Part shown: piece after piece, positions 24,639 to 62,251 of the stretch
Numbering within the stretch: the stretch's first letter is position 1
Layout of the letters: each line of letters begins with the position of its first letter
Made by a program: the position numbers and the translations under genes
The notes under the pieces: generated by a model
The model's input: the letters and a program-made list of their open reading frames with translations, nothing else
Database searches by the model: none
What the model was told of the DNA's origin: nothing
NCBI GenBank assembly: GCA_027048495.1
Contig: JALTWS010000011.1
Span: 173-64,172, forward strand
DNA: 64,000 bases
From: Candidatus Azambacteria bacterium
GTDB taxonomy: Bacteria > Patescibacteriota > Minisyncoccia > GWC2-36-17 > M10-OD1-4
Reading direction: 5' to 3'

Positions 24639-24766
24639 GGAAATTTCCACCCCATTTCCATATAATTTCCTAAAAAATTTGAATAGGAAATTATATGGAA
24701 ATGGGGTGTTGCTTTTTTTGGGAAAATAGCATATACTTCTGGCAAATATAAGATTAGGAAATTTCC
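24639..24766. repeat. GGAAAT/ATTTCC hexamer array A (11-bp phased) with a 25-bp perfect inverted repeat
   Basis: ATTTCC at 24643, 24654 and 24665; GGAAAT at 24686 and 24697. The inverted repeat is CACCCCATTTCCATATAATTTCCTA (24648-24672) against TAGGAAATTATATGGAAATGGGGTG (24684-24708). GGAAATTTCC palindromes at 24639 and 24757. Confidence 0.85.
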
Positions 24767-24770
24767 ATAT

Positions 24771-25520
24771 ATGTATAACCTTGATTTTGAAGACAACAAA
24801 AAATGGGGAAGTGTACTTGAGGTAACTGTTGCTGTTTGGAAGGTTTCTGATGCCTCTATGAGCGATAACTTCTTAAAAGAGGAACTTAAAAAAACAGCAA
24901 AGAATATTTTAATTTTTTATACATATTATTTTTCTTCTTCAAACTTTGAAGATAAAAAATTAGAAAACAAGCTTATCTATTATCTGGATAAAATGATAGC
25001 TTTGCTTTCTTTGTCCCAGAGGCTTTCCAAGTTAAAGGAGATAAACTTTGTAATTTTAAAAAATGAATACAAAAAAATAAAATTTGAACTGTTGGCAAAA
25101 ATAGACCAAAGAAATATTCAAAACAAAAATAACAGTAAAAAAAGTACATTAGATGAAAGTCAGGGGTTGGAAACCTCTCAAGATTTAGAAGAAAATAAAG
25201 TTACTGAGAAAAAAAAAGAAGAAGAGGAGTTTAAAAAACAACAACAAGAAGAAAGTGAGCAGAAAGAACAAAACTCAGCAATAAAAAAAACCAAAACAAT
25301 AAAAAACAAAACTTATGATTTAAGTCCAAGACAGCAGGATATAATTGATCTTTTAAAAAGAAACCCCGATGCTAAAATAAGGCCAAAAGATATAGCAATG
25401 AGTTTTCCAAAAGTAACTCCAAGAACCATAAGGACAGACCTTAAAATTTTGTGTGATAAAAATATCTTAAAAAGATCAAGCAGGAAAGGACAATCTGTTT
25501 TTTACTACTTAGTTAAGTAA
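24771..25520 (+). CDS. Transcriptional regulator with C-terminal DeoR/HrcA-like winged HTH
   Basis: C-terminus LSPRQQDIIDLLKRNPDAKIRPKDIAMSFPKVTPRTIRTDLKILCDKNILKR resembles the DeoR-type HTH (TIRRDL); acidic K/E-rich linker; N-terminal helical domain of unknown family. Confidence 0.5.
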   Translation: MYNLDFEDNKKWGSVLEVTVAVWKVSDASMSDNFLKEELKKTAKNILIFYTYYFSSSNFEDKKLENKLIYYLDKMIALLSLSQRLSKLKEINFVILKNEYKKIKFELLAKIDQRNIQNKNNSKKSTLDESQGLETSQDLEENKVTEKKKEEEEFKKQQQEESEQKEQNSAIKKTKTIKNKTYDLSPRQQDIIDLLKRNPDAKIRPKDIAMSFPKVTPRTIRTDLKILCDKNILKRSSRKGQSVFYYLVK

Positions 25521-25528
25521 ATTTAAAC

Positions 25529-25676
25529 GGAAATTATATGGAAATGAATAGGAAATGAATAGGAAATAATTAGGAAATGAATAGGAAATTAAATTTCCTA
25601 TTCATTTCCTAATTATTTCCGCATAATTTCCATATAATTTCCTATTCATTTCCTAATTATTTCCTATTTAATTTCT
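25529..25676. repeat. GGAAAT/ATTTCC hexamer array B: 6 direct plus 7-8 inverted copies at exact 11-bp spacing
   Basis: GGAAAT starts at 25529, 25540, 25551, 25562, 25573 and 25584; ATTTCC starts at 25593, 25604, 25615, 25626, 25637, 25648, 25659 and (25671, degenerate); symmetry centre about 25591. Confidence 0.9.
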
Positions 25677-46065: not shown

Positions 46066-46130
46066 CCCCTAAGGACAACCCTAGGAATAATCCTAGGAAT
46101 AATCCTAGGGATAATCCTAGGGATAATCAT
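46066..46130. repeat. CCTAGG(G/A)ATAAT 12-bp tandem repeats (5 units)
   Basis: CCTAAGGACAAC CCTAGGAATAAT CCTAGGAATAAT CCTAGGGATAAT CCTAGGGATAAT. Confidence 0.85.
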
Positions 46131-46159
46131 AAGAAAAAACATATCAACCACCAATAAAG

Positions 46160-46197
46160 TTACTTAACTTTCTCACGATCGTGAGAAAGTTAAGTAA
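46160..46197. repeat. 38-bp perfect palindrome, copy 1 (TTACTTAACTTTCTCACGATCGTGAGAAAGTTAAGTAA)
   Basis: Identical copies at 54218-54255 and 60187-60224. Confidence 0.9.
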
Positions 46198-46311
46198 ATG
46201 CTTATTAAATGAATGAATGTTTGATTATTTTATTTTTTATTTGACTTATATTGTTTAGTTAAATGAAAGTAAGGTTTTTAAATTTTTATTAGTTTTTTAA
46301 AAATTATAAAT

Positions 46312-46361
46312 TCAAAATAGTTAAAATAAAACACGATCGTGTTTTATTTTAACTATTTTGA
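46312..46361. repeat. 50-bp perfect palindrome sharing the CACGATCGTG core
   Basis: TCAAAATAGTTAAAATAAAACACGA|TCGTGTTTTATTTTAACTATTTTGA. Confidence 0.85.
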
Positions 46362-46492: not shown

Positions 46493-47065
46493 ATGACTTT
46501 AAGCGACATAGAAAGACAAATAAAAGCGTGTCAAGAATGTCCTCTTGCAAAAACAAGAACAAATGCTGTTCCGGGAGAGGGTAATTTTTCTGCTGATATT
46601 GTTTTTTTGGGAGAAGGTCCCGGAAAAGACGAGGATTTACAAGGTCGTCCTTTTGTCGGGGCGGCCGGAAAATTTTTAACCCAAATGATAAAAAGCATAG
46701 GGTTAAAAAGAGAAGATGTTTTTATAACAAACATTGTAAAATGTCGACCTCCAAATAATCGGGATCCGGAAGATGATGAGGTTTCTGTCTGTACTGAGCT
46801 TTATTTGTGGCGCCAACTTGAGCTAGTAAATCCTATTTTGATAGCAACGCTAGGTAGGCACTCTATGCACCGGTTTTTGCCAAAAAATTTTAAAATATCC
46901 CAAATTCATGGCATACCAAAAAAAGTAACAAACAAAAAAACCGGCAAGACTTTCAACATCTTGCCTTTGTATCATCCAGCTGCCGCTTTGTATAACGGCG
47001 CCTTAAGAGAAACTTTGGAAAATGATTTTAAAAAAATACCAAAAATAATAGAGAAGTTAAGATAA
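46493..47065 (+). CDS. udg: Uracil-DNA glycosylase, family 4
   Basis: CQECPL...GEGPGKDEDLQGRPFVGAAGKFL (family-4 UDG Fe-S Cys motif and GEGPG); start set to ATG 46493 (MTLSDIERQIK). Confidence 0.85.
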   Translation: MTLSDIERQIKACQECPLAKTRTNAVPGEGNFSADIVFLGEGPGKDEDLQGRPFVGAAGKFLTQMIKSIGLKREDVFITNIVKCRPPNNRDPEDDEVSVCTELYLWRQLELVNPILIATLGRHSMHRFLPKNFKISQIHGIPKKVTNKKTGKTFNILPLYHPAAALYNGALRETLENDFKKIPKIIEKLR

Positions 47066-47076
47066 AATTTAAGTAT

Positions 47077-48687
47077 ATGAAAAATACCGGAATTAATTTT
47101 AAAGAATATCTCGGAAGCGAGCCAGCTTGGTCTTTGTCTTTCAGGCAAAGTGGCGAGCTGAGAGCTAAACCCCGACGAGCAGCTGGAGCGAGGAGAGGGT
47201 GGTTCTTTAAAATTAATTCCGGTATTTTTTTAATTCTTTTGTTCTTTCCTTTTTTTGCCAGCGCTCAAGTTGTTGTAAACGAAATTGCTTGGATGGGGAC
47301 TGAAAATTCCGCAAACGATGAATGGATAGAGTTAAAAAACACAAGTTCAAGTACGGTTGATCTTTCCGGCTGGATTTTGCAAGCGCAGGATGGCAGTCCG
47401 AAAATTGAGCTATCCGGAAGTGTAGAATCTTTTGGATATTTTTTGCTTGAGAGGCAAGATGATAGTTCTGTACCTGGTATTGCAGCGGACTTGATATATA
47501 CCGGTGCGCTTTCTAACTCTGGCGAAGTTTTAATCTTAAAAGATGCCAACGGCGTTGAAGTTGACAGAGTGGACGGTTCAAACAGCTGGGAGTCTGTAGG
47601 AGGAGATAATACAACAAAAAAAACTGCCCAAAAAACAGAAAACGGATGGGCAACAGCAACATCAACTCCAAAAGCCCAAAATAATTTTGATAAAACCAAA
47701 AGAACGGAACCACAAAAAGAACAAAAACAAGATGTAAAAAATGGAAATGCTTTAAACAACAAGCAAAAAGAAAATTTTTCAGGCAATATTTTAATAAAAG
47801 CAAATGCCGGAGAAAATATAGTTGCTCAAGTTGGACAGAACATATTTTTTGATGCCTCTTTGTCTGAGGGTAATATTTCTGAGTTTGTTTGGAATATGGG
47901 AGACGGTAATACAAAATCTGGCAAAAGCTTTTTGTATTCTTATTCTTTTCCGGGAAGGTATCTGGTTACTCTTTTTGCAAAAGGAGATGGGATTCAGTCA
48001 AAAGATCAGATAGATGTTGTTGTTTATCCTGTTGGCATTTATATTTCTGAGTTTTTCTATCAGGAAGAAAAATCTTGGGTTGAGCTTTACAATAGCTCTG
48101 ATAGCTTTGTTGATTTGTCTTTTTATAAAATAGCAAACGAAAAAAATGTATTTGAGATTCCAGAGGGGACGTTTATCGCTCCTTTGTCTTATTTAGTTTT
48201 TTCCGAAGAAGCGCTTGGCTTTTCTATTTTGAAAAGTGGAACTCTTATGCTTTTGTACCCAAATGGACAGCCAAAAGATAAAGTAGAATATGAATTTGAA
48301 AAAATAGGGTTCTCAGCTTCAAGAAAAAACCAAGATGAGTTTGTTTTGACAAAAAACAAAACTCCAGGATTTGCTAATGTTTCTGTTGGTTCTTTTTTTG
48401 AAAGTGAAGATCCAAACAAAAAAGAAGTGTTAAAAGACAAAGCTGTGCCAAGAAGCCTAGTAAAAGAAGACGAAGCTCATTTTGTAAAAGTTGGCGGACA
48501 AAAGAGCTTTTTGGTTATGCCAGCCTCTGCTAAACTTTTGCCGGAAGTTGCAGATCAAAAACCGATGAAAGTAAATATCCAAGCAAATTTAACATCTTTT
48601 TTTGATGCTTCTTGGTTTTTTTATGTTGTTTTTGCTTTTTTGATTGTGTTTTTTGGAGCATTTTTTCTTGGAAGAAAATTTAAGTAG
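47077..48687 (+). CDS. Secreted lamin-tail-domain (LTD) x2 plus PKD-domain protein with C-terminal TM; first 51 codons (through 47229) fall inside the 150-bp MITE-like element, so the true N-terminus is uncertain
   Basis: VVNEIAWMGTENSANDEWIELKNTS...DLSGW (LTD), PKD-like GQNIFFDASLS...WNMGDGN, second LTD-like YISEFFYQEEKSWVELYNSS, C-terminal hydrophobic anchor. Confidence 0.6.
   Translation: MKNTGINFKEYLGSEPAWSLSFRQSGELRAKPRRAAGARRGWFFKINSGIFLILLFFPFFASAQVVVNEIAWMGTENSANDEWIELKNTSSSTVDLSGWILQAQDGSPKIELSGSVESFGYFLLERQDDSSVPGIAADLIYTGALSNSGEVLILKDANGVEVDRVDGSNSWESVGGDNTTKKTAQKTENGWATATSTPKAQNNFDKTKRTEPQKEQKQDVKNGNALNNKQKENFSGNILIKANAGENIVAQVGQNIFFDASLSEGNISEFVWNMGDGNTKSGKSFLYSYSFPGRYLVTLFAKGDGIQSKDQIDVVVYPVGIYISEFFYQEEKSWVELYNSSDSFVDLSFYKIANEKNVFEIPEGTFIAPLSYLVFSEEALGFSILKSGTLMLLYPNGQPKDKVEYEFEKIGFSASRKNQDEFVLTKNKTPGFANVSVGSFFESEDPNKKEVLKDKAVPRSLVKEDEAHFVKVGGQKSFLVMPASAKLLPEVADQKPMKVNIQANLTSFFDASWFFYVVFAFLIVFFGAFFLGRKFK
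47080..47229. mobile_element. MITE-like element: 27-bp perfect terminal inverted repeats flanking a 96-nt GC-rich core
   Basis: 47080-47106 AAAAATACCGGAATTAATTTTAAAGAA is the exact reverse complement of 47203-47229; the core is about 55% GC in a roughly 32% GC genome. Confidence 0.6.
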
Positions 48688-51824: not shown

Positions 51825-52781
51825 ATGAGCAAAAATTTAAAATCAAAAATAAAATATGATGTATCTTTGGCAAACTACAATACTTTTAAAATTGGAGGAA
51901 AAGCAAAAGCATTTGTTCAGGTAGATACAAAAGAAGAATTAAAAGACGCAATTTTATTTGCCAAGCAAAACAATATGCCTTATTACATATTGGGAGGGGG
52001 AACTAATATTTTAGTTTCTGATGATGGTTTTTCTGGTATTGTTATAAAAAACAATATTTCAGATATAAAAATAAATGAAAAAGAATGTTATATGATAGCA
52101 GGATCTGGGATTTCTGTTGGCGCTTTGCTTAATCAGGCAAAAAAGCTTGGATTTTCTGGGCTTGAATGGGCTTGCGGGCTTCCGGGAACTTTGGGAGGAG
52201 CAATTTTTGGAAATGCGGGATCATGCGGTGGTTGTATTGCTGATCTGGTTGAGTTTGTTGATGTTTTGGATCCGGAAACTCTTAAGTTCAAATACATTTT
52301 AAAAGATCAATGCGAGTTCAAATACAGAGATAGCGCCTTTAAAAGAAACGGGCTTTTGATAACCTCAGCAATGCTTTCTTTTAAAAAAGATGATCCTGTA
52401 AATATAATGAATAAGATGGCAGAAAACTTTGCTTTCAGAAGAGGGCATCAGCCGCTTTCTGAAAAAACAGAAGGATGTATTTTTAAAAACATTGACCTTA
52501 AAGAAAAAAAAGATTTTCCAAAAATTTGGAATGACATTTTTGAGTTTTCTGTTTTTGTAAAAAAGAAAATGGTTCCAGCAGGTTTTTTAATAGACAGAGC
52601 GGGGCTTAAAGGATTGTCTTGCGGAGGCGCAAAGGTTTCTCAAAGGCATGCAAATTTTATTTTGACAGAAAAAGGAGCAACTGCAAAAGATGTTTTTGAT
52701 TTAATTTTAAAAATCAAATCTAAAGTTAAAGAAAAATTTTCAGTTGAACTTGAAGAAGAAATTCAATTTTTAGGTTTTTAA
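51825..52781 (+). CDS. murB: UDP-N-acetylenolpyruvoylglucosamine reductase
   Basis: FAD-binding YNTFKIGGKAKAF...ILGGGTNILV, C-terminal MurB domain. Confidence 0.9.
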   Translation: MSKNLKSKIKYDVSLANYNTFKIGGKAKAFVQVDTKEELKDAILFAKQNNMPYYILGGGTNILVSDDGFSGIVIKNNISDIKINEKECYMIAGSGISVGALLNQAKKLGFSGLEWACGLPGTLGGAIFGNAGSCGGCIADLVEFVDVLDPETLKFKYILKDQCEFKYRDSAFKRNGLLITSAMLSFKKDDPVNIMNKMAENFAFRRGHQPLSEKTEGCIFKNIDLKEKKDFPKIWNDIFEFSVFVKKKMVPAGFLIDRAGLKGLSCGGAKVSQRHANFILTEKGATAKDVFDLILKIKSKVKEKFSVELEEEIQFLGF

Positions 52782-52965
52782 TTTTATTTTTTAAAAATAA
52801 AATTAAAAAATAAGTTGTCCACAGTTATTTTTATTTTAATTTGTTGTATAATAAAAATGTAACTTAAAAATTTAATTTTTTATTTTTAAAAAAACAAAGG
52901 TCGGTTAAGTAATATTAAAATTTAATTTTTATTTTTTAAAAAATAAAAATTAAATTAATATTAAT

Positions 52966-54170: not shown

Positions 54171-54217
54171 AATTTGGTTTAATTATAAATTATGTATTCT
54201 TACTTTCTTTACAAAAG

Positions 54218-54255
54218 TTACTTAACTTTCTCACGATCGTGAGAAAGTTAAGTAA
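54218..54255. repeat. 38-bp perfect palindrome, copy 2
   Basis: Identical to 46160-46197. Confidence 0.9.
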
Positions 54256-54281
54256 AGTTTATTTGAGTAATTTGCTTAATG

Positions 54282-60173: not shown

Positions 60174-60186
60174 CCATTTATCTCCT

Positions 60187-60224
60187 TTACTTAACTTTCT
60201 CACGATCGTGAGAAAGTTAAGTAA
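60187..60224. repeat. 38-bp perfect palindrome, copy 3
   Basis: Identical to 46160-46197 and 54218-54255. Confidence 0.9.
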
Positions 60225-60290
60225 AGGGGGTGTTTTTGTGTTTGGGGCGGTGGGTTGACTTTTTTTTGTTGTTTTGTATACTTTAAGCTA

Positions 60291-60950: not shown

Positions 60951-60972
60951 AAGTTAACTTTAATAAACAAAA

Positions 60973-61012
60973 TTACGTAATTACGTCCGTACTTACGTCC
61001 GTACTTACGTAA
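60973..61012. repeat. ACGTAATTACGT palindrome plus 2 x CCGTACTTACGT direct repeat in the rplJ-rplL spacer
   Basis: Seen directly: acgtaattacgt ccgtacttacgt ccgtacttacgt. Confidence 0.7.
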
Positions 61013-61028
61013 GATAAAATTAAAAAAT

Positions 61029-61448
61029 ATGTCAGAAGAAGTAGAAAAAAAAGATATTGAAGTTCCTGCTAAGTTTAAGGATATAGTAGAAGCAATAGAA
61101 AAACTTAGCGTCATTGAGCTTTCAGAGCTTGTTAAGGTTTTAGAAGATAAATTCGGCGTTTCTGCATCTGCTCCAATGGCAGTTGCCGCTGTTCCAGCAG
61201 CGGGAGGCGGAGCTGGAGATGAAGGAGGGGCTGAAAAGACAGAATTTACGGTTGAGTTAAAAGACGCCGGAGACCAAAAGATACAGGTTATCAAGGCAGT
61301 TCGCGAGATAACAGGGCTTGGTCTTAAAGAAGCAAAAGACTTAGTTGATGGAGCTCCAAAGGCTATAAAAGAAGGAGTTAAAAAAGAAGAGGCAGAAGAG
61401 ATGAAAAAGAAGCTTGAAGAAGCAGGTGCTGTAGTTGAGTTAAAATAG
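61029..61448 (+). CDS. rplL: 50S ribosomal protein L7/L12
   Basis: N-terminal dimerisation helix, Ala/Gly hinge, C-terminal [43 protein letters not shown]. Confidence 0.95.
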
Positions 61449-61504: not shown

Positions 61505-62251
61505 ATGGACAAGATATATGTAGAGCTGTCTGCTGAAAAAATTACAGAATTTTTAGGCATACCGATAACTGATGCGTTGTTGGCAAGCTGGATTGTTGTT
61601 TTTTTGGTTGTTTTGGGAGCTTTGTTTTCAAGAAAAAAGATAAAATTAATTCCGGGAAAGATTCAGGTATTATTTGAGTTTCTTATTTTGTATGTAAAAG
61701 ATTACATGACAGAAACTTTAGAAAGTGAGAGATTGGCAAAAAAATTTCTTCCTTTTGTACTTACAATATTTTTGTTTATATTTTTTGCCAATATGTTTGG
61801 TTTTTTGCCGGGAATAGGCAGTATTGGTATTTACGAAACTATTGGGGAAGAAAAAGAATTTATATCTTTGCTAAGGCCAGTTAATACTGATCTTAATGTA
61901 ACAGTTGCGCTTGCTATAATATCTTTTGTTGTTATAGAGGTTACTGGAGTTGCAACTTTAGGTTTCTTGAAATATTTTTCAAAATTTGTTAATTTTAAGT
62001 CTCCGCTTGCTTTTTTGATAGGAATAATAGAACTTTTTTCTGAGATTGCAAGGTTGATTGCTTTTTCTTTCCGTCTTTTTGGAAATATGTTTGCCGGTAA
62101 GGTTTTGGTGCTTGTTGTTATGTTTTTTGTTCCTTATTTGCTTCCTGTCCCGATATTGCTTTTTGAGGTGTTTGTTGGTTTTATCCAAGCGGCGATATTT
62201 GCCTTGCTTACCTTGTTTTTTATCAAAATAGCGATAACAGAACCGCATTAA
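61505..62251 (+). CDS. atpB: F-type ATP synthase subunit a
   Basis: 5-TM protein with conserved Arg in FSFRLFGNMFAGK and C-terminal Q/E helix. Confidence 0.85.
   Translation: MDKIYVELSAEKITEFLGIPITDALLASWIVVFLVVLGALFSRKKIKLIPGKIQVLFEFLILYVKDYMTETLESERLAKKFLPFVLTIFLFIFFANMFGFLPGIGSIGIYETIGEEKEFISLLRPVNTDLNVTVALAIISFVVIEVTGVATLGFLKYFSKFVNFKSPLAFLIGIIELFSEIARLIAFSFRLFGNMFAGKVLVLVVMFFVPYLLPVPILLFEVFVGFIQAAIFALLTLFFIKIAITEPH

What the first reader, a model, noticed from the sequence alone, without database searches (positions are those of the whole stretch)
47080..47229. MITE-like 150-bp element with 27-bp perfect terminal inverted repeats and GC-rich core embedded in the 5' end of the LTD-protein gene
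47080-47106 is the exact reverse complement of 47203-47229. The enclosed 96 nt is about 55% GC, against about 32% for surrounding sequence. The annotated ORF's start codon (47077) and its first about 50 codons (MKNTGINFKEYLGSEPAWSLSFRQSGELRAKPRRAAGARRGW...) lie inside the element. The predicted signal-peptide hydrophobic core (GIFLILLFFPFFASA|Q) begins in the right repeat. Either a small mobile element has been exapted to supply the start codon and signal n-region, or the true translation start is non-canonical and the open frame through the GC-rich core is fortuitous (GC-rich DNA rarely contains stops). Alternatively the core is a small structured RNA with a long closing stem.
Basis: seen in the sequence. 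Interest (0 to 1): 0.6.

Follow-up and report, generated by a model that had tools for sequence, protein, structure and literature searches.

The report
Orphan hairpin insertion in a signal peptide
A 150-bp piece of foreign-looking DNA with perfect inverted ends sits, in frame, just after the start codon of a secreted surface-protein gene in one uncultured CPR bacterium. It lengthens only the signal peptide, which is predicted to be cut off, so it looks like a tolerated one-off insertion and not a new gene part or RNA.

Summary
Positions 47080-47106 and 47203-47229 are perfect 27-nt inverted repeats around a 96-nt core. The core is 58% GC in a 33% GC genome and is the most GC-rich stretch of the window outside tRNAs and the rplL hinge.

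Comparison with syntenic orthologous loci (UDG-LTD-MurC) gives two results:
- The ATG at 47077 is the native start. It lies 11 nt after the UDG stop, as in the orthologues.
- Every orthologue lacks the about 43 extra codons.

The element is therefore a lineage-specific, in-frame insertion into the n-region of the signal peptide. Its core has the worst codon usage of 15,724 gene windows, so it is alien DNA. The core does not fold better than shuffled sequence, and nothing in Rfam matches it.

I found one copy only:
- None elsewhere in about 72 kb of the same genome.
- None in 185,579 GTDB species genomes, in JGI metagenomes, or in the viral, plasmid, phage and E. coli collections.
- No transposase or invertase among the 48 window proteins scanned.
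- Five contigs from several samples carry it 100% identical and in the same orientation.

Best reading: a solo MITE-like or RPE-like palindromic insertion, possibly at a TA. The rival is a repair event that captured filler DNA and inverted a copy of the adjoining codons. Either way it is read through and removed with the signal peptide. Interest is modest.

The parts
46493..47065 (+). Upstream uracil-DNA glycosylase gene. It is the syntenic anchor that fixes where the LTD gene should start.
   Evidence: Pfam UDG, E=1.9e-34. The same UDG-LTD-MurC order is found in orthologous loci L003, L004, L006 and L007.
47077..47079 (+). Native ATG start codon of the LTD/PKD protein gene. It lies outside the perfect repeat.
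   Evidence: It is 11 nt after the UDG stop. Orthologues start 13 nt (L003) or 8 nt (L004) after the stop, or overlap it (L006).
47080..47106 (+). Left arm of the perfect 27-nt inverted repeat. It is 22% GC, like the host, and encodes KNTGINFKE.
47085..47086 (.). TA dinucleotide that could be the left copy of a 2-bp target-site duplication. The partner is at 47223-47224. In this reading the element is 47087-47222 (136 bp) with 20-bp TIRs, and the empty site is the palindrome AAAAATATTTTT.
   Evidence: Read directly from the sequence. This is inference only, because no empty site is available.
47107..47202 (+). GC-rich alien core: 96 nt, 58% GC, 32 codons reading YLGSEPAWSLSFRQSGELRAKPRRAAGARRGW.
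   Evidence: GC content. Its codon-usage score (-0.62) is the lowest of 15,724 32-codon windows from 47 window genes plus the rest of the LTD gene. It has no fold signal of its own. It has no match in Rfam or in the plasmid, phage and E. coli collections. Exact 21-22-mers from it found nothing in the GTDB, JGI or viral contigs.
47203..47229 (+). Right arm of the inverted repeat, encoding FFKINSGIF. In the protein alignment, FK(IN) falls where the orthologues have their M-K/R start, and the h-region begins here.
47223..47224 (.). TA dinucleotide, the possible right copy of the 2-bp target-site duplication.
   Evidence: Read directly from the sequence; inference.
47230..47265 (+). Rest of the native signal peptide (LILLFFPFFASA). 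The predicted signal-peptidase site is ASA|Q, between 47265 and 47266.
   Evidence: AxA|Q(V/I) is conserved in 11 of the 12 aligned orthologues; one has A-x-A|K. Cleavage itself is inferred, not shown.
47077..48687 (+). Host gene: a 536-aa secreted or anchored protein with lamin-tail and PKD domains. It is intact and reads through the insertion.
   Evidence: An identical protein is found in other assemblies.

Best explanation
The element is a single-copy, lineage-specific insertion of compositionally foreign DNA bounded by perfect inverted repeats. It landed in frame immediately after the native start codon of the LTD-protein gene.

The most economical mechanism is a cut-and-paste type insertion of a small non-autonomous foldback element:
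- The element would be 47087-47222, 136 bp, with 20-bp TIRs (CCGGAATTAATTTTAAAGAA).
- It would have entered the central TA of a pre-existing palindromic site AAAAA-TA-TTTTT and duplicated the TA.
- That single event explains all 27 nt of perfect symmetry.
- The reconstructed empty site is ATG AAA AAT ATT TTT TTA..., reading MKNIFLILLFFPFFASA|Q.

Because the inserted length is a multiple of three and the read-through frame has no stop, the gene survived. The extra 41-46 residues carry a net charge of about +4 to +5 and simply lengthen the n-region of a Sec-type signal peptide. They would be discarded at the conserved ASA|Q cleavage site, so the mature protein is unchanged.

The mRNA now carries a 27-bp stem starting at +4 of the ORF. 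This probably lowers or modulates translation and could be an RNase III target, but I see no evidence that this is an evolved function.

What is shown and what is inferred:
- Shown: it is an insertion, the start codon is native, the core is alien in composition, it is a single copy in all data reachable, and it is real and fixed in the sampled population.
- Inferred: transposition at TA, removal by signal peptidase, and any effect on expression.

The confidence given (0.5) is for the whole statement including the transposition mechanism. For the shown part alone I would say about 0.85.
For: - The perfect 27-nt inverted repeat is far beyond chance.
- All 14 closest orthologues (45-56% identity) start about 43 residues later, directly with M-K/R plus the h-region.
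- Synteny places ATG 47077 at the orthologous start.
- The core is 58% GC against 33% for the genome, and has the worst codon usage of 15,724 gene windows.
- Length, TIR length and the predicted stable hairpin (-68.5 kcal/mol, z=-7.2) fit the structural definition of prokaryotic MITEs: <500 bp, TIRs of about 4-30 bp, stem-loop transcripts (PMC10969869). They also fit in-frame palindromic elements such as the about 150-bp RPEs (PMC10969869).
- A TA flanks a 20-bp TIR on both sides, and the outer A5/T5 would be a palindromic target.
- The element is 100% identical, and in the same orientation, in 5 contigs from 4 assemblies of at least 3 samples: Logan SRR10312489, Logan SRR10312503, ENA ERZ23495365 and NCBI GCA_015491195.1. 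It is therefore not an assembly artefact.
- The 5' region -30..+170 has an MFE of -71.6 kcal/mol, against -35.8 +/- 9.5 for 48 genes. It is the most structured of all.
Against: - No second copy exists anywhere I could look. The 64-kb window has none, and neither does a further 8.2 kb of the same genome.
- The 20-mer TIR and a 22-mer from the core gave 0 hits in 185,579 GTDB species genomes.
- In the metagenome collection the same 22-mer from the core gave 0 hits, and the TIR 18-mer gave 82 loci (plus 3 viral loci), each with one match. Only one of these (L077) has a 4-mismatch partner candidate, and no locus resembles the core.
- Logan (de Bruijn-graph) contigs run straight through the element. 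From my own knowledge of that pipeline, this suggests its k-mers are unique in those samples.
- There is no transposase, integrase or invertase among 48 window proteins.
- The arms are host-like (22-25% GC) while the core is 58% GC. A foreign element would be expected to have a uniform composition, and MITEs are typically AT-rich.
- The TA-model empty site gives a 17-residue signal peptide, shorter than any orthologue (20-35 residues).
- The only possible TSD is a 2-bp palindrome, which is weak evidence.
Confidence: 0.5

Rival explanations
1. This was a one-off repair or replication accident, not transposition. A break or template switch just after the start codon captured about 96-108 nt of foreign filler DNA. 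It also copied the adjoining 21-27 nt of the gene's own signal-peptide codons in inverted orientation, a fold-back or template-switch inverted duplication. One arm is then native coding sequence. The ancestral peptide would be MKINSGIFLILLFFPFFASA (right arm native) or MKNTGINFKELILLFFPFFASA (left arm native).
For: - The arms have host-like composition (22% GC) and change sharply to a 58% GC core.
- In the protein alignment the orthologues' M-K/R falls exactly on F44-K45 of the right arm. The reconstructed 20-residue (or 22-residue) signal peptide lies within the orthologue length range of 20-35, whereas the TA model gives 17.
- The element is strictly single copy, with no transposase and no family anywhere.
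- The arms are perfectly identical, as expected if one was copied from the other.
Against: - It needs two coupled rare events, capture of filler DNA plus an inverted duplication, where transposition at TA needs one.
- The source of the filler was not found in any collection.
- An additional 6-bp inverted repeat (AAAGAA/TTCTTT) would have to belong to the filler by chance.
Confidence: 0.3
2. The element is a recoding intragenic inverton. The 27-bp repeats would be recombination sites, and flipping the 96-nt core would switch the N-terminal extension between two peptides without breaking the ORF, giving phase variation of a surface protein.
For: - Inverted repeats flank a short segment inside a surface-protein gene, as described for intragenic invertons (bioRxiv 10.1101/2023.03.11.532203).
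- Both orientations are open in frame.
Against: - All 5 contigs, from at least 3 samples, show one orientation.
- No inverted-allele protein exists in the 5.8-billion-cluster collection. The P0001 cluster has 1 member, and the next hit is only 56% identical.
- There is no invertase among 48 window proteins.
- Three of the six frames of the core are open, so the double-open frame is unremarkable.
- The variable part would lie in a cleaved signal peptide, where recoding achieves little.
- The core is alien DNA absent from orthologues.
Confidence: 0.04
3. The element is a functional structured RNA. It would be either a small ncRNA gene with a long closing stem or a cis-regulatory leader that sequesters the start region, with translation starting non-canonically downstream.
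For: - GC-rich islands in AT-rich genomes are often structured RNAs.
- The whole element folds at -68.5 kcal/mol, z=-7.2.
- There is an SD-like GAGGAGAGGG near the 3' end of the core.
Against: - No Rfam family matches at gathering threshold. At E<=10 only generic long-hairpin miRNA models appear, and ARAGORN finds nothing.
- The core alone gives z=-0.5 on the plus strand and +1.2 on the minus strand.
- No homologue exists, so there is no conservation or covariation to examine.
- The genome does not use SD motifs.
- No ATG, GTG or TTG downstream would keep a signal peptide.
- Orthologues have neither a leader nor a gap at this position.
Confidence: 0.05
4. The element is an assembly or library artefact, such as a chimeric join or an MDA-type inverted chimera.
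For: Inverted junctions flanking foreign sequence are the classic form of amplification chimeras (own knowledge). The core matches nothing else.
Against: Identical sequence was recovered by different assemblers from at least two SRA runs and several ENA and NCBI assemblies, always embedded in 2-72 kb of otherwise identical context. The frame is preserved.
Confidence: 0.02

Closest known systems
Rickettsia palindromic elements (RPEs)
   Same: About 150-bp palindromic elements that sit in frame inside protein-coding genes and are translated as a peptide insert without destroying the protein (PMC10969869). Here a 123-150-bp palindromic segment is read through in frame in an intact gene.
   Different: RPEs form families with tens of copies per genome and a conserved peptide. 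This element is a single orphan copy with no relative found. It lies in the cleavable signal peptide and not in the mature protein. Its core is GC-rich and alien in composition.
Prokaryotic MITEs with long TIRs, e.g. the Neisseria Correia element and Coxiella QMITE2
   Same: The architecture matches: about 100-200 bp, TIRs of 23-29 bp around a 113-145-bp core in QMITE2, no ORF of its own, and a very stable transcript hairpin that in Correia is cut by RNase III. A TA target duplication is possible, as I recall for Correia (own knowledge, not checked here).
   Different: MITEs are multicopy, usually AT-rich, have a related autonomous IS and sit mostly in intergenic DNA. None of these holds here. 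This element is one copy with a 58% GC core, no transposase or second TIR in 72 kb, and an intragenic position.
Intragenic (recoding) invertons
   Same: Inverted repeats bracket a short segment wholly inside a gene for a surface protein, and inversion would keep the frame open.
   Different: There is no evidence of the second orientation and no invertase nearby. The segment is foreign DNA absent from orthologues.
GC clusters and 'byp' elements of AT-rich yeast mitochondrial genomes (own knowledge, not checked here)
   Same: Short GC-rich palindromic insertions in very AT-rich genomes, sometimes inside coding sequences.
   Different: Those are organellar, 30-60 bp and multicopy, and some are bypassed by the ribosome. 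Here the frame is simply read through, and no family exists.

Membership tests
Prokaryotic MITE (definition in PMC10969869) | Total length under 500 bp and no transposase ORF | tested here: met
   The element is 136-150 bp. The only ORF through it is the host gene.
Prokaryotic MITE | Terminal inverted repeats of about 4-30 bp | tested here: met
   The arms match at 27 of 27 nt.
Prokaryotic MITE | Flanking direct repeats (target-site duplication) | tested here: inconclusive
   There is no direct repeat outside the 27-nt arms. Only the palindromic TA (47085-86 and 47223-24), or AT, inside the arms can be read as a 2-bp TSD. No empty site is available to check this.
Prokaryotic MITE | Multiple copies per genome, or a family across genomes | tested here: not met
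   There is one copy in about 72 kb of the genome. The GTDB representatives gave 0 hits. The metagenome and viral loci hit by the TIR 18-mer each hold a single match, only one (L077) has a weak partner candidate, and none resembles the core. The rest of this genome could not be searched.
Prokaryotic MITE | A related autonomous IS with matching TIRs able to mobilise it in trans | tested here: not met
   There is no transposase among the 48 window proteins and no other TIR copy. A genome-wide test was not possible.
Prokaryotic MITE | AT-rich composition | tested here: not met
   The core is 58% GC in a 33% GC genome. Only the arms are AT-rich.
Prokaryotic MITE | Transcript forms a stable stem-loop | tested here: met
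   The predicted fold is -68.5 kcal/mol, z=-7.2. This is a prediction only.
RPE-like in-frame palindromic elements | Palindromic element of about 100-150 bp inserted in frame in an intact protein gene | tested here: met
RPE-like in-frame palindromic elements | The same element or peptide recurs in many unrelated genes | tested here: inconclusive
   phmmer of the 51-aa peptide against 1.84 billion representative proteins gave only 4 weak hits to repetitive proteins. The best, P0121, is a spurious ORF on a 59-nt tandem repeat with no DNA similarity to the core. However, representatives at 50% identity can hide insert-bearing members, and the two word-index searches failed their positive control.
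Intragenic inverton | Both orientations coexist in the population | tested here: inconclusive
   All 5 contigs have one orientation, and no inverted allele is present among the protein clusters.
Intragenic inverton | A site-specific invertase is encoded in the genome | tested here: not met
   There is none among the 48 proteins of the 64-kb window. The rest of the genome was not seen.
Known structured RNA family (Rfam 15) | Match to a covariance model at gathering score | tested here: not met
   The only hits were tRNAs elsewhere in the window and sub-threshold miRNA-hairpin hits driven by the arms.
Novel structured RNA | Fold more stable than shuffles, with covariation among homologues | tested here: not met
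   The core gives z=-0.5 and +1.2. There are no homologues, so covariation is not testable.
Tat (twin-arginine) signal peptide | S/T-R-R-x-F-L-K motif recognised by the TAT_signal models | tested here: not met
   ARRGWFFK lies just before the h-region, but neither Pfam nor NCBIfam gives a hit even at E<=10.

The most novel reading that the evidence does not exclude
The element could be the first sighted member of an RPE-like family of GC-rich palindromic selfish elements in CPR/Patescibacteria. Such elements would colonise protein-coding genes at positions where a peptide insert is harmless, here a cleavable signal peptide. The remaining copies would lie in the unsampled rest of this genome or in relatives. 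A bolder version is that its 27-bp stem at +4 acts as an expression switch for a surface protein in an SD-less genome.
Probability: 0.12. Interest if true: 0.55.

Novelty: new variant of a known kind. Interest (0 to 1): 0.28.

Why it matters
If this is only a one-off insertion, its value is mainly as an annotation note and a small natural experiment.
- The long N-terminus of this LTD protein is not a conserved domain.
- A Sec signal peptide seems to tolerate a 43-residue, arginine-rich, foreign extension of its n-region.

If further copies turn up, it would be the first MITE-like or RPE-like element described in the reduced genomes of CPR bacteria. My two literature searches found no report of MITEs in CPR/Patescibacteria. 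It would also be a marker of DNA flow from GC-richer neighbours or hosts.

Tried and rejected
1. Rfam scans, at gathering threshold over the whole window and at E<=10 over the region, found nothing relevant. ARAGORN also found nothing.
2. Exact scans gave no copies:
   - The TIR 20-mer and a 22-mer from the core gave 0 hits in the GTDB genomes.
   - The 22-mer from the core gave 0 hits in the JGI metagenomes.
   - Three k-mers from the core gave 0 hits in the viral contigs.
   - The TIR 18-mer hit 82 metagenome loci and 3 viral loci, each with a single match. Only one (L077) has a 4-mismatch partner candidate, and no locus resembles the core. I judge these chance hits or unrelated genes.
3. 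blastn against the plasmid, phage and E. coli collections gave nothing meaningful, so vector or contaminant origin is unlikely.
4. I searched with multi-frame concatenated peptides of the element in the 5.8-billion-cluster protein index. Both searches returned nothing, but they also failed to return P0001 itself, although phmmer scores it at E=1e-22 locally. These two searches are therefore uninformative.
5. phmmer against 1.84 billion representatives gave a lead, P0121 (E=4e-7). It turned out to be a spurious ORF over a 59-nt tandem repeat in a 59% GC contig, with no DNA-level similarity to the core. I rejected it.
6. The second GC peak in the window (61123-61285) and a 15-nt TIR match (61641-61655) are the rplL Ala/Gly hinge and an atpB codon run. 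They are unrelated.
7. A downstream non-canonical start with an SD is rejected, because the genome lacks SD usage.
8. A Tat signal is rejected, because no HMM hit was found.
9. Excision of the full 150 or 168 nt would leave leaders of 13 or 9 residues, too short for a signal peptide. The outer boundaries are therefore unlikely to be the true insertion limits (compared).
Full report
**The observation**

Positions 47080-47106 and 47203-47229 are perfect reverse complements, 27 of 27 nt. The 27-mer occurs nowhere else in the 64-kb window even with 3 mismatches, and never in 100 shuffles. The 96 nt in between are 58.3% GC, against 32.7% for the window. In a 90-nt sliding scan this is the highest GC peak of the window, at 0.60 and tied with the Ala/Gly hinge of rplL. 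The only other notable peaks are two tRNA genes. ORF 47077-48687 (536 aa, lamin-tail and PKD domains) reads straight through.

**Is it real DNA?**

Exactly the same protein and DNA, including the element in the same orientation, are present in contigs assembled independently:
- Logan assemblies of SRR10312489 and SRR10312503.
- ENA ERZ23495365.
- NCBI GCA_015491195.1.

All are 100% identical to the window over 2.1-6.5 kb. An assembly chimera is therefore very unlikely. The population sampled is essentially clonal at this locus.

**Comparative context**

The window is housekeeping chromosome of a Patescibacteria (CPR) bacterium. It encodes RF, FtsEX, TGT, ClpB, SecDF, EF-P, MurC, MurB, Obg, L10, L7/L12 and ATP synthase, and no transposase, integrase or invertase among 48 proteins scanned.

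The closest homologues of the LTD protein are only 45-56% identical. They are 482-524 aa long, mostly some 20-50 residues shorter than the 536-aa window protein, and BLAST covers only 89-92% of the query.

Their N-termini are ordinary 20-35-residue signal peptides: M-K/R, a hydrophobic run with a conserved Pro, then AxA|Q-V-x-I-N-E-I-A-W-M-G. In the alignment the window protein has 43 extra residues in front. The orthologues' Met-Lys/Arg falls on F44-K45, inside the right arm.

The gene order TraG-like ATPase, EF-P, UDG, LTD, MurC, 570-aa protein is conserved. In the loci where UDG precedes it, the LTD start codon lies 13 nt (L003) or 8 nt (L004) after the UDG stop, or overlaps it (L006). ATG 47077 lies 11 nt after the UDG stop. 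Hence the start codon is native, and the element is an in-frame insertion directly behind it. It is neither an ancient coding N-terminus nor a 5' leader.

**Nature of the inserted DNA**

- In the reading frame used, the core has the lowest codon-usage score (-0.62) of 15,724 32-codon windows taken from 47 window genes plus the rest of the LTD gene (mean +0.67, sd 0.24). Its GC3 is 0.47 against 0.26. It is compositionally alien and not ameliorated.
- The arms are 22% GC, like the host.
- The core alone is not more stable than dinucleotide shuffles (z=-0.5 on the plus strand, +1.2 on the minus strand). The striking z=-7.2 of the whole element comes entirely from the 27-bp stem.
- Rfam has nothing beyond sub-threshold generic hairpin models, and ARAGORN finds nothing. 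I therefore see no support for a structured RNA gene.

**Copy number and relatives**

No second copy, or even a partial one, exists in the window or in 8.2 kb more of the same genome. The wider searches were:
- The TIR 20-mer and a 22-mer from the core gave 0 hits in 185,579 GTDB species genomes. This also shows that this organism is not in that collection.
- The 22-mer from the core gave 0 hits in the JGI metagenomes.
- Three k-mers from the core gave 0 hits in IMG/VR.
- The TIR 18-mer hit 82 metagenome loci and 3 viral loci, each with a single match. Only one (L077) has a 4-mismatch partner candidate within 400 nt, and no locus resembles the core.
- The plasmid, phage and E. coli collections gave nothing.
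- At protein level, phmmer of the 51-residue N-terminus against 1.84 billion representatives gave four weak hits to repetitive proteins. The best was a spurious ORF over a 59-nt tandem repeat with no DNA similarity.
- Two word-index searches were uninformative because they failed to retrieve the query's own protein.
- No insert-less or inverted allele of the protein exists among 5.8 billion clusters. The P0001 cluster has one member, and the next hit is 56% identical.

In addition, Logan contigs pass through the element but break at true repeats nearby, the palindromes at 46.16-46.38 kb. From my knowledge of de Bruijn assembly, this suggests the element is unique in those samples.

**Where exactly was it inserted?**

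Three reconstructions are all in frame.

| Model | Inserted DNA | Reconstructed signal peptide | Length |
|---|---|---|---|
| (i) TA model | Element 47087-47222 with 20-bp TIRs, inserted into the TA of AAAAA-TA-TTTTT with TA duplication | MKNIFLILLFFPFFASA\|Q | 17 residues |
| (ii) Right arm native | 129 nt | MKINSGIFLILLFFPFFASA\|Q | 20 residues |
| (iii) Left arm native | 123 nt | MKNTGINFKELILLFFPFFASA\|Q | 22 residues |

- Model (i) needs one well-known kind of event and explains all 27 symmetric bases. Its signal peptide is shorter than in any orthologue.
- Models (ii) and (iii) fit the orthologue lengths (20-35) and the host-like composition of the arms. They require capture of filler DNA plus an inverted duplication of the target.
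- Removing the full 150 or 168 nt would leave leaders too short for a signal peptide.
- No empty site is available, so this remains open.

**Consequences**

The extension (residues 2-46 or so) carries a net charge of about +7, counted from the sequence, and precedes an intact h-region and AxA|Q site. By the usual rules for Sec signal peptides (own knowledge) it should still target the protein and be removed, leaving the mature protein unchanged. This would explain why the insertion is tolerated.

The genome hardly uses Shine-Dalgarno motifs (5 of 48 genes), and its start regions are unstructured (mean MFE -4.6 kcal/mol for -20..+40). The LTD gene's -30..+170 region folds at -71.6 kcal/mol, against -35.8 +/- 9.5, and is the most structured of 48 genes. 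A depressive or modulatory effect on initiation, or RNase III cleavage as shown for Correia elements (PMC10969869), is therefore plausible but untested.

The junction creates a twin-arginine-like ARRGWFFK. The Tat-signal models do not recognise it.

**Comparison with known systems**

- In anatomy the element resembles long-TIR MITEs such as QMITE2 and Correia. In behaviour it resembles Rickettsia palindromic elements, which are about 150 bp, in frame and translated.
- It fails the family-defining tests that could be run: copy number, a partner IS and AT-richness. I do not file it as a MITE, only as MITE-like.
- The inverton reading is formally open, because both orientations keep the frame. 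It has no positive support.

**Verdict**

This is a real, lineage-specific, single-copy insertion of alien DNA with perfect inverted termini into the signal-peptide n-region of an LTD surface protein. It is most likely a solo MITE-like or RPE-like element, or alternatively a repair-generated inverted duplication with filler DNA. It is most likely a tolerated passenger. It is ordinary in kind, slightly unusual in detail, and of modest interest unless more copies are found.

Noticed in passing
window 46158-46199, 54213-54260, 60184-60227; related palindrome at 46313-46360: There are three identical copies of a perfect palindrome of about 42 nt (AAAGTTACTTAACTTTCTCACGA|TCGTGAGAAAGTTAAGTAA) in intergenic DNA. 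A related 48-nt palindrome centred on CACGATCGTG scores as terminator-like. Contigs from other assemblies of this organism begin or end at these sites. They look like a REP-like or bidirectional-terminator repeat family and are unrelated in sequence to the finding.
   Followed up: partly
window 25529-25676 and 24648-24708: There is a head-to-head array of about a dozen 11-nt units (AGGAAATGAAT / AGGAAATAATT), symmetric about position 25596 and downstream of ORF 24771-25520. The pattern gave 7 matches in the window against 2.1 expected. The same GGAAAT motif occurs in a 25-nt perfect inverted repeat at 24648-24708. The array looks like iterons or an operator.
   Followed up: partly
window 46080-46127: Four tandem copies of a 12-nt unit (CCTAGGRATAAT) lie in the EF-P/UDG intergenic region. 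They generate a spurious 'NPRNNPRD' ORF.
   Followed up: no
window 60970-61010: Short tandem ACGTCCGTACTT-type repeats lie immediately upstream of rplL.
   Followed up: no
whole window (48 genes): Only 5 of 48 genes have an SD-like motif upstream. Start regions are A/U-rich and nearly unstructured (mean MFE -4.6 kcal/mol for -20..+40). This suggests SD-independent initiation in this CPR lineage.
   Followed up: partly
window 47185-47211 (residues 37-45 of the LTD protein): The junction of the core and the right arm encodes a twin-arginine-like ARRGWFFK directly before the hydrophobic region. Neither the Pfam nor the NCBIfam Tat-signal models hit it.
   Followed up: yes
window 52776-52956: A cluster of overlapping AT-only palindromes, up to 25 nt perfect, lies downstream of murB. 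The Logan contig L001 ends here, at 52849.
   Followed up: no
tool behaviour, not the window: The word-index protein search did not retrieve the 536-aa protein P0001 when queried with its own 50-residue N-terminus, although local phmmer gives E=1e-22. Negative results from short peptide queries in that tool should not be trusted.
   Followed up: yes
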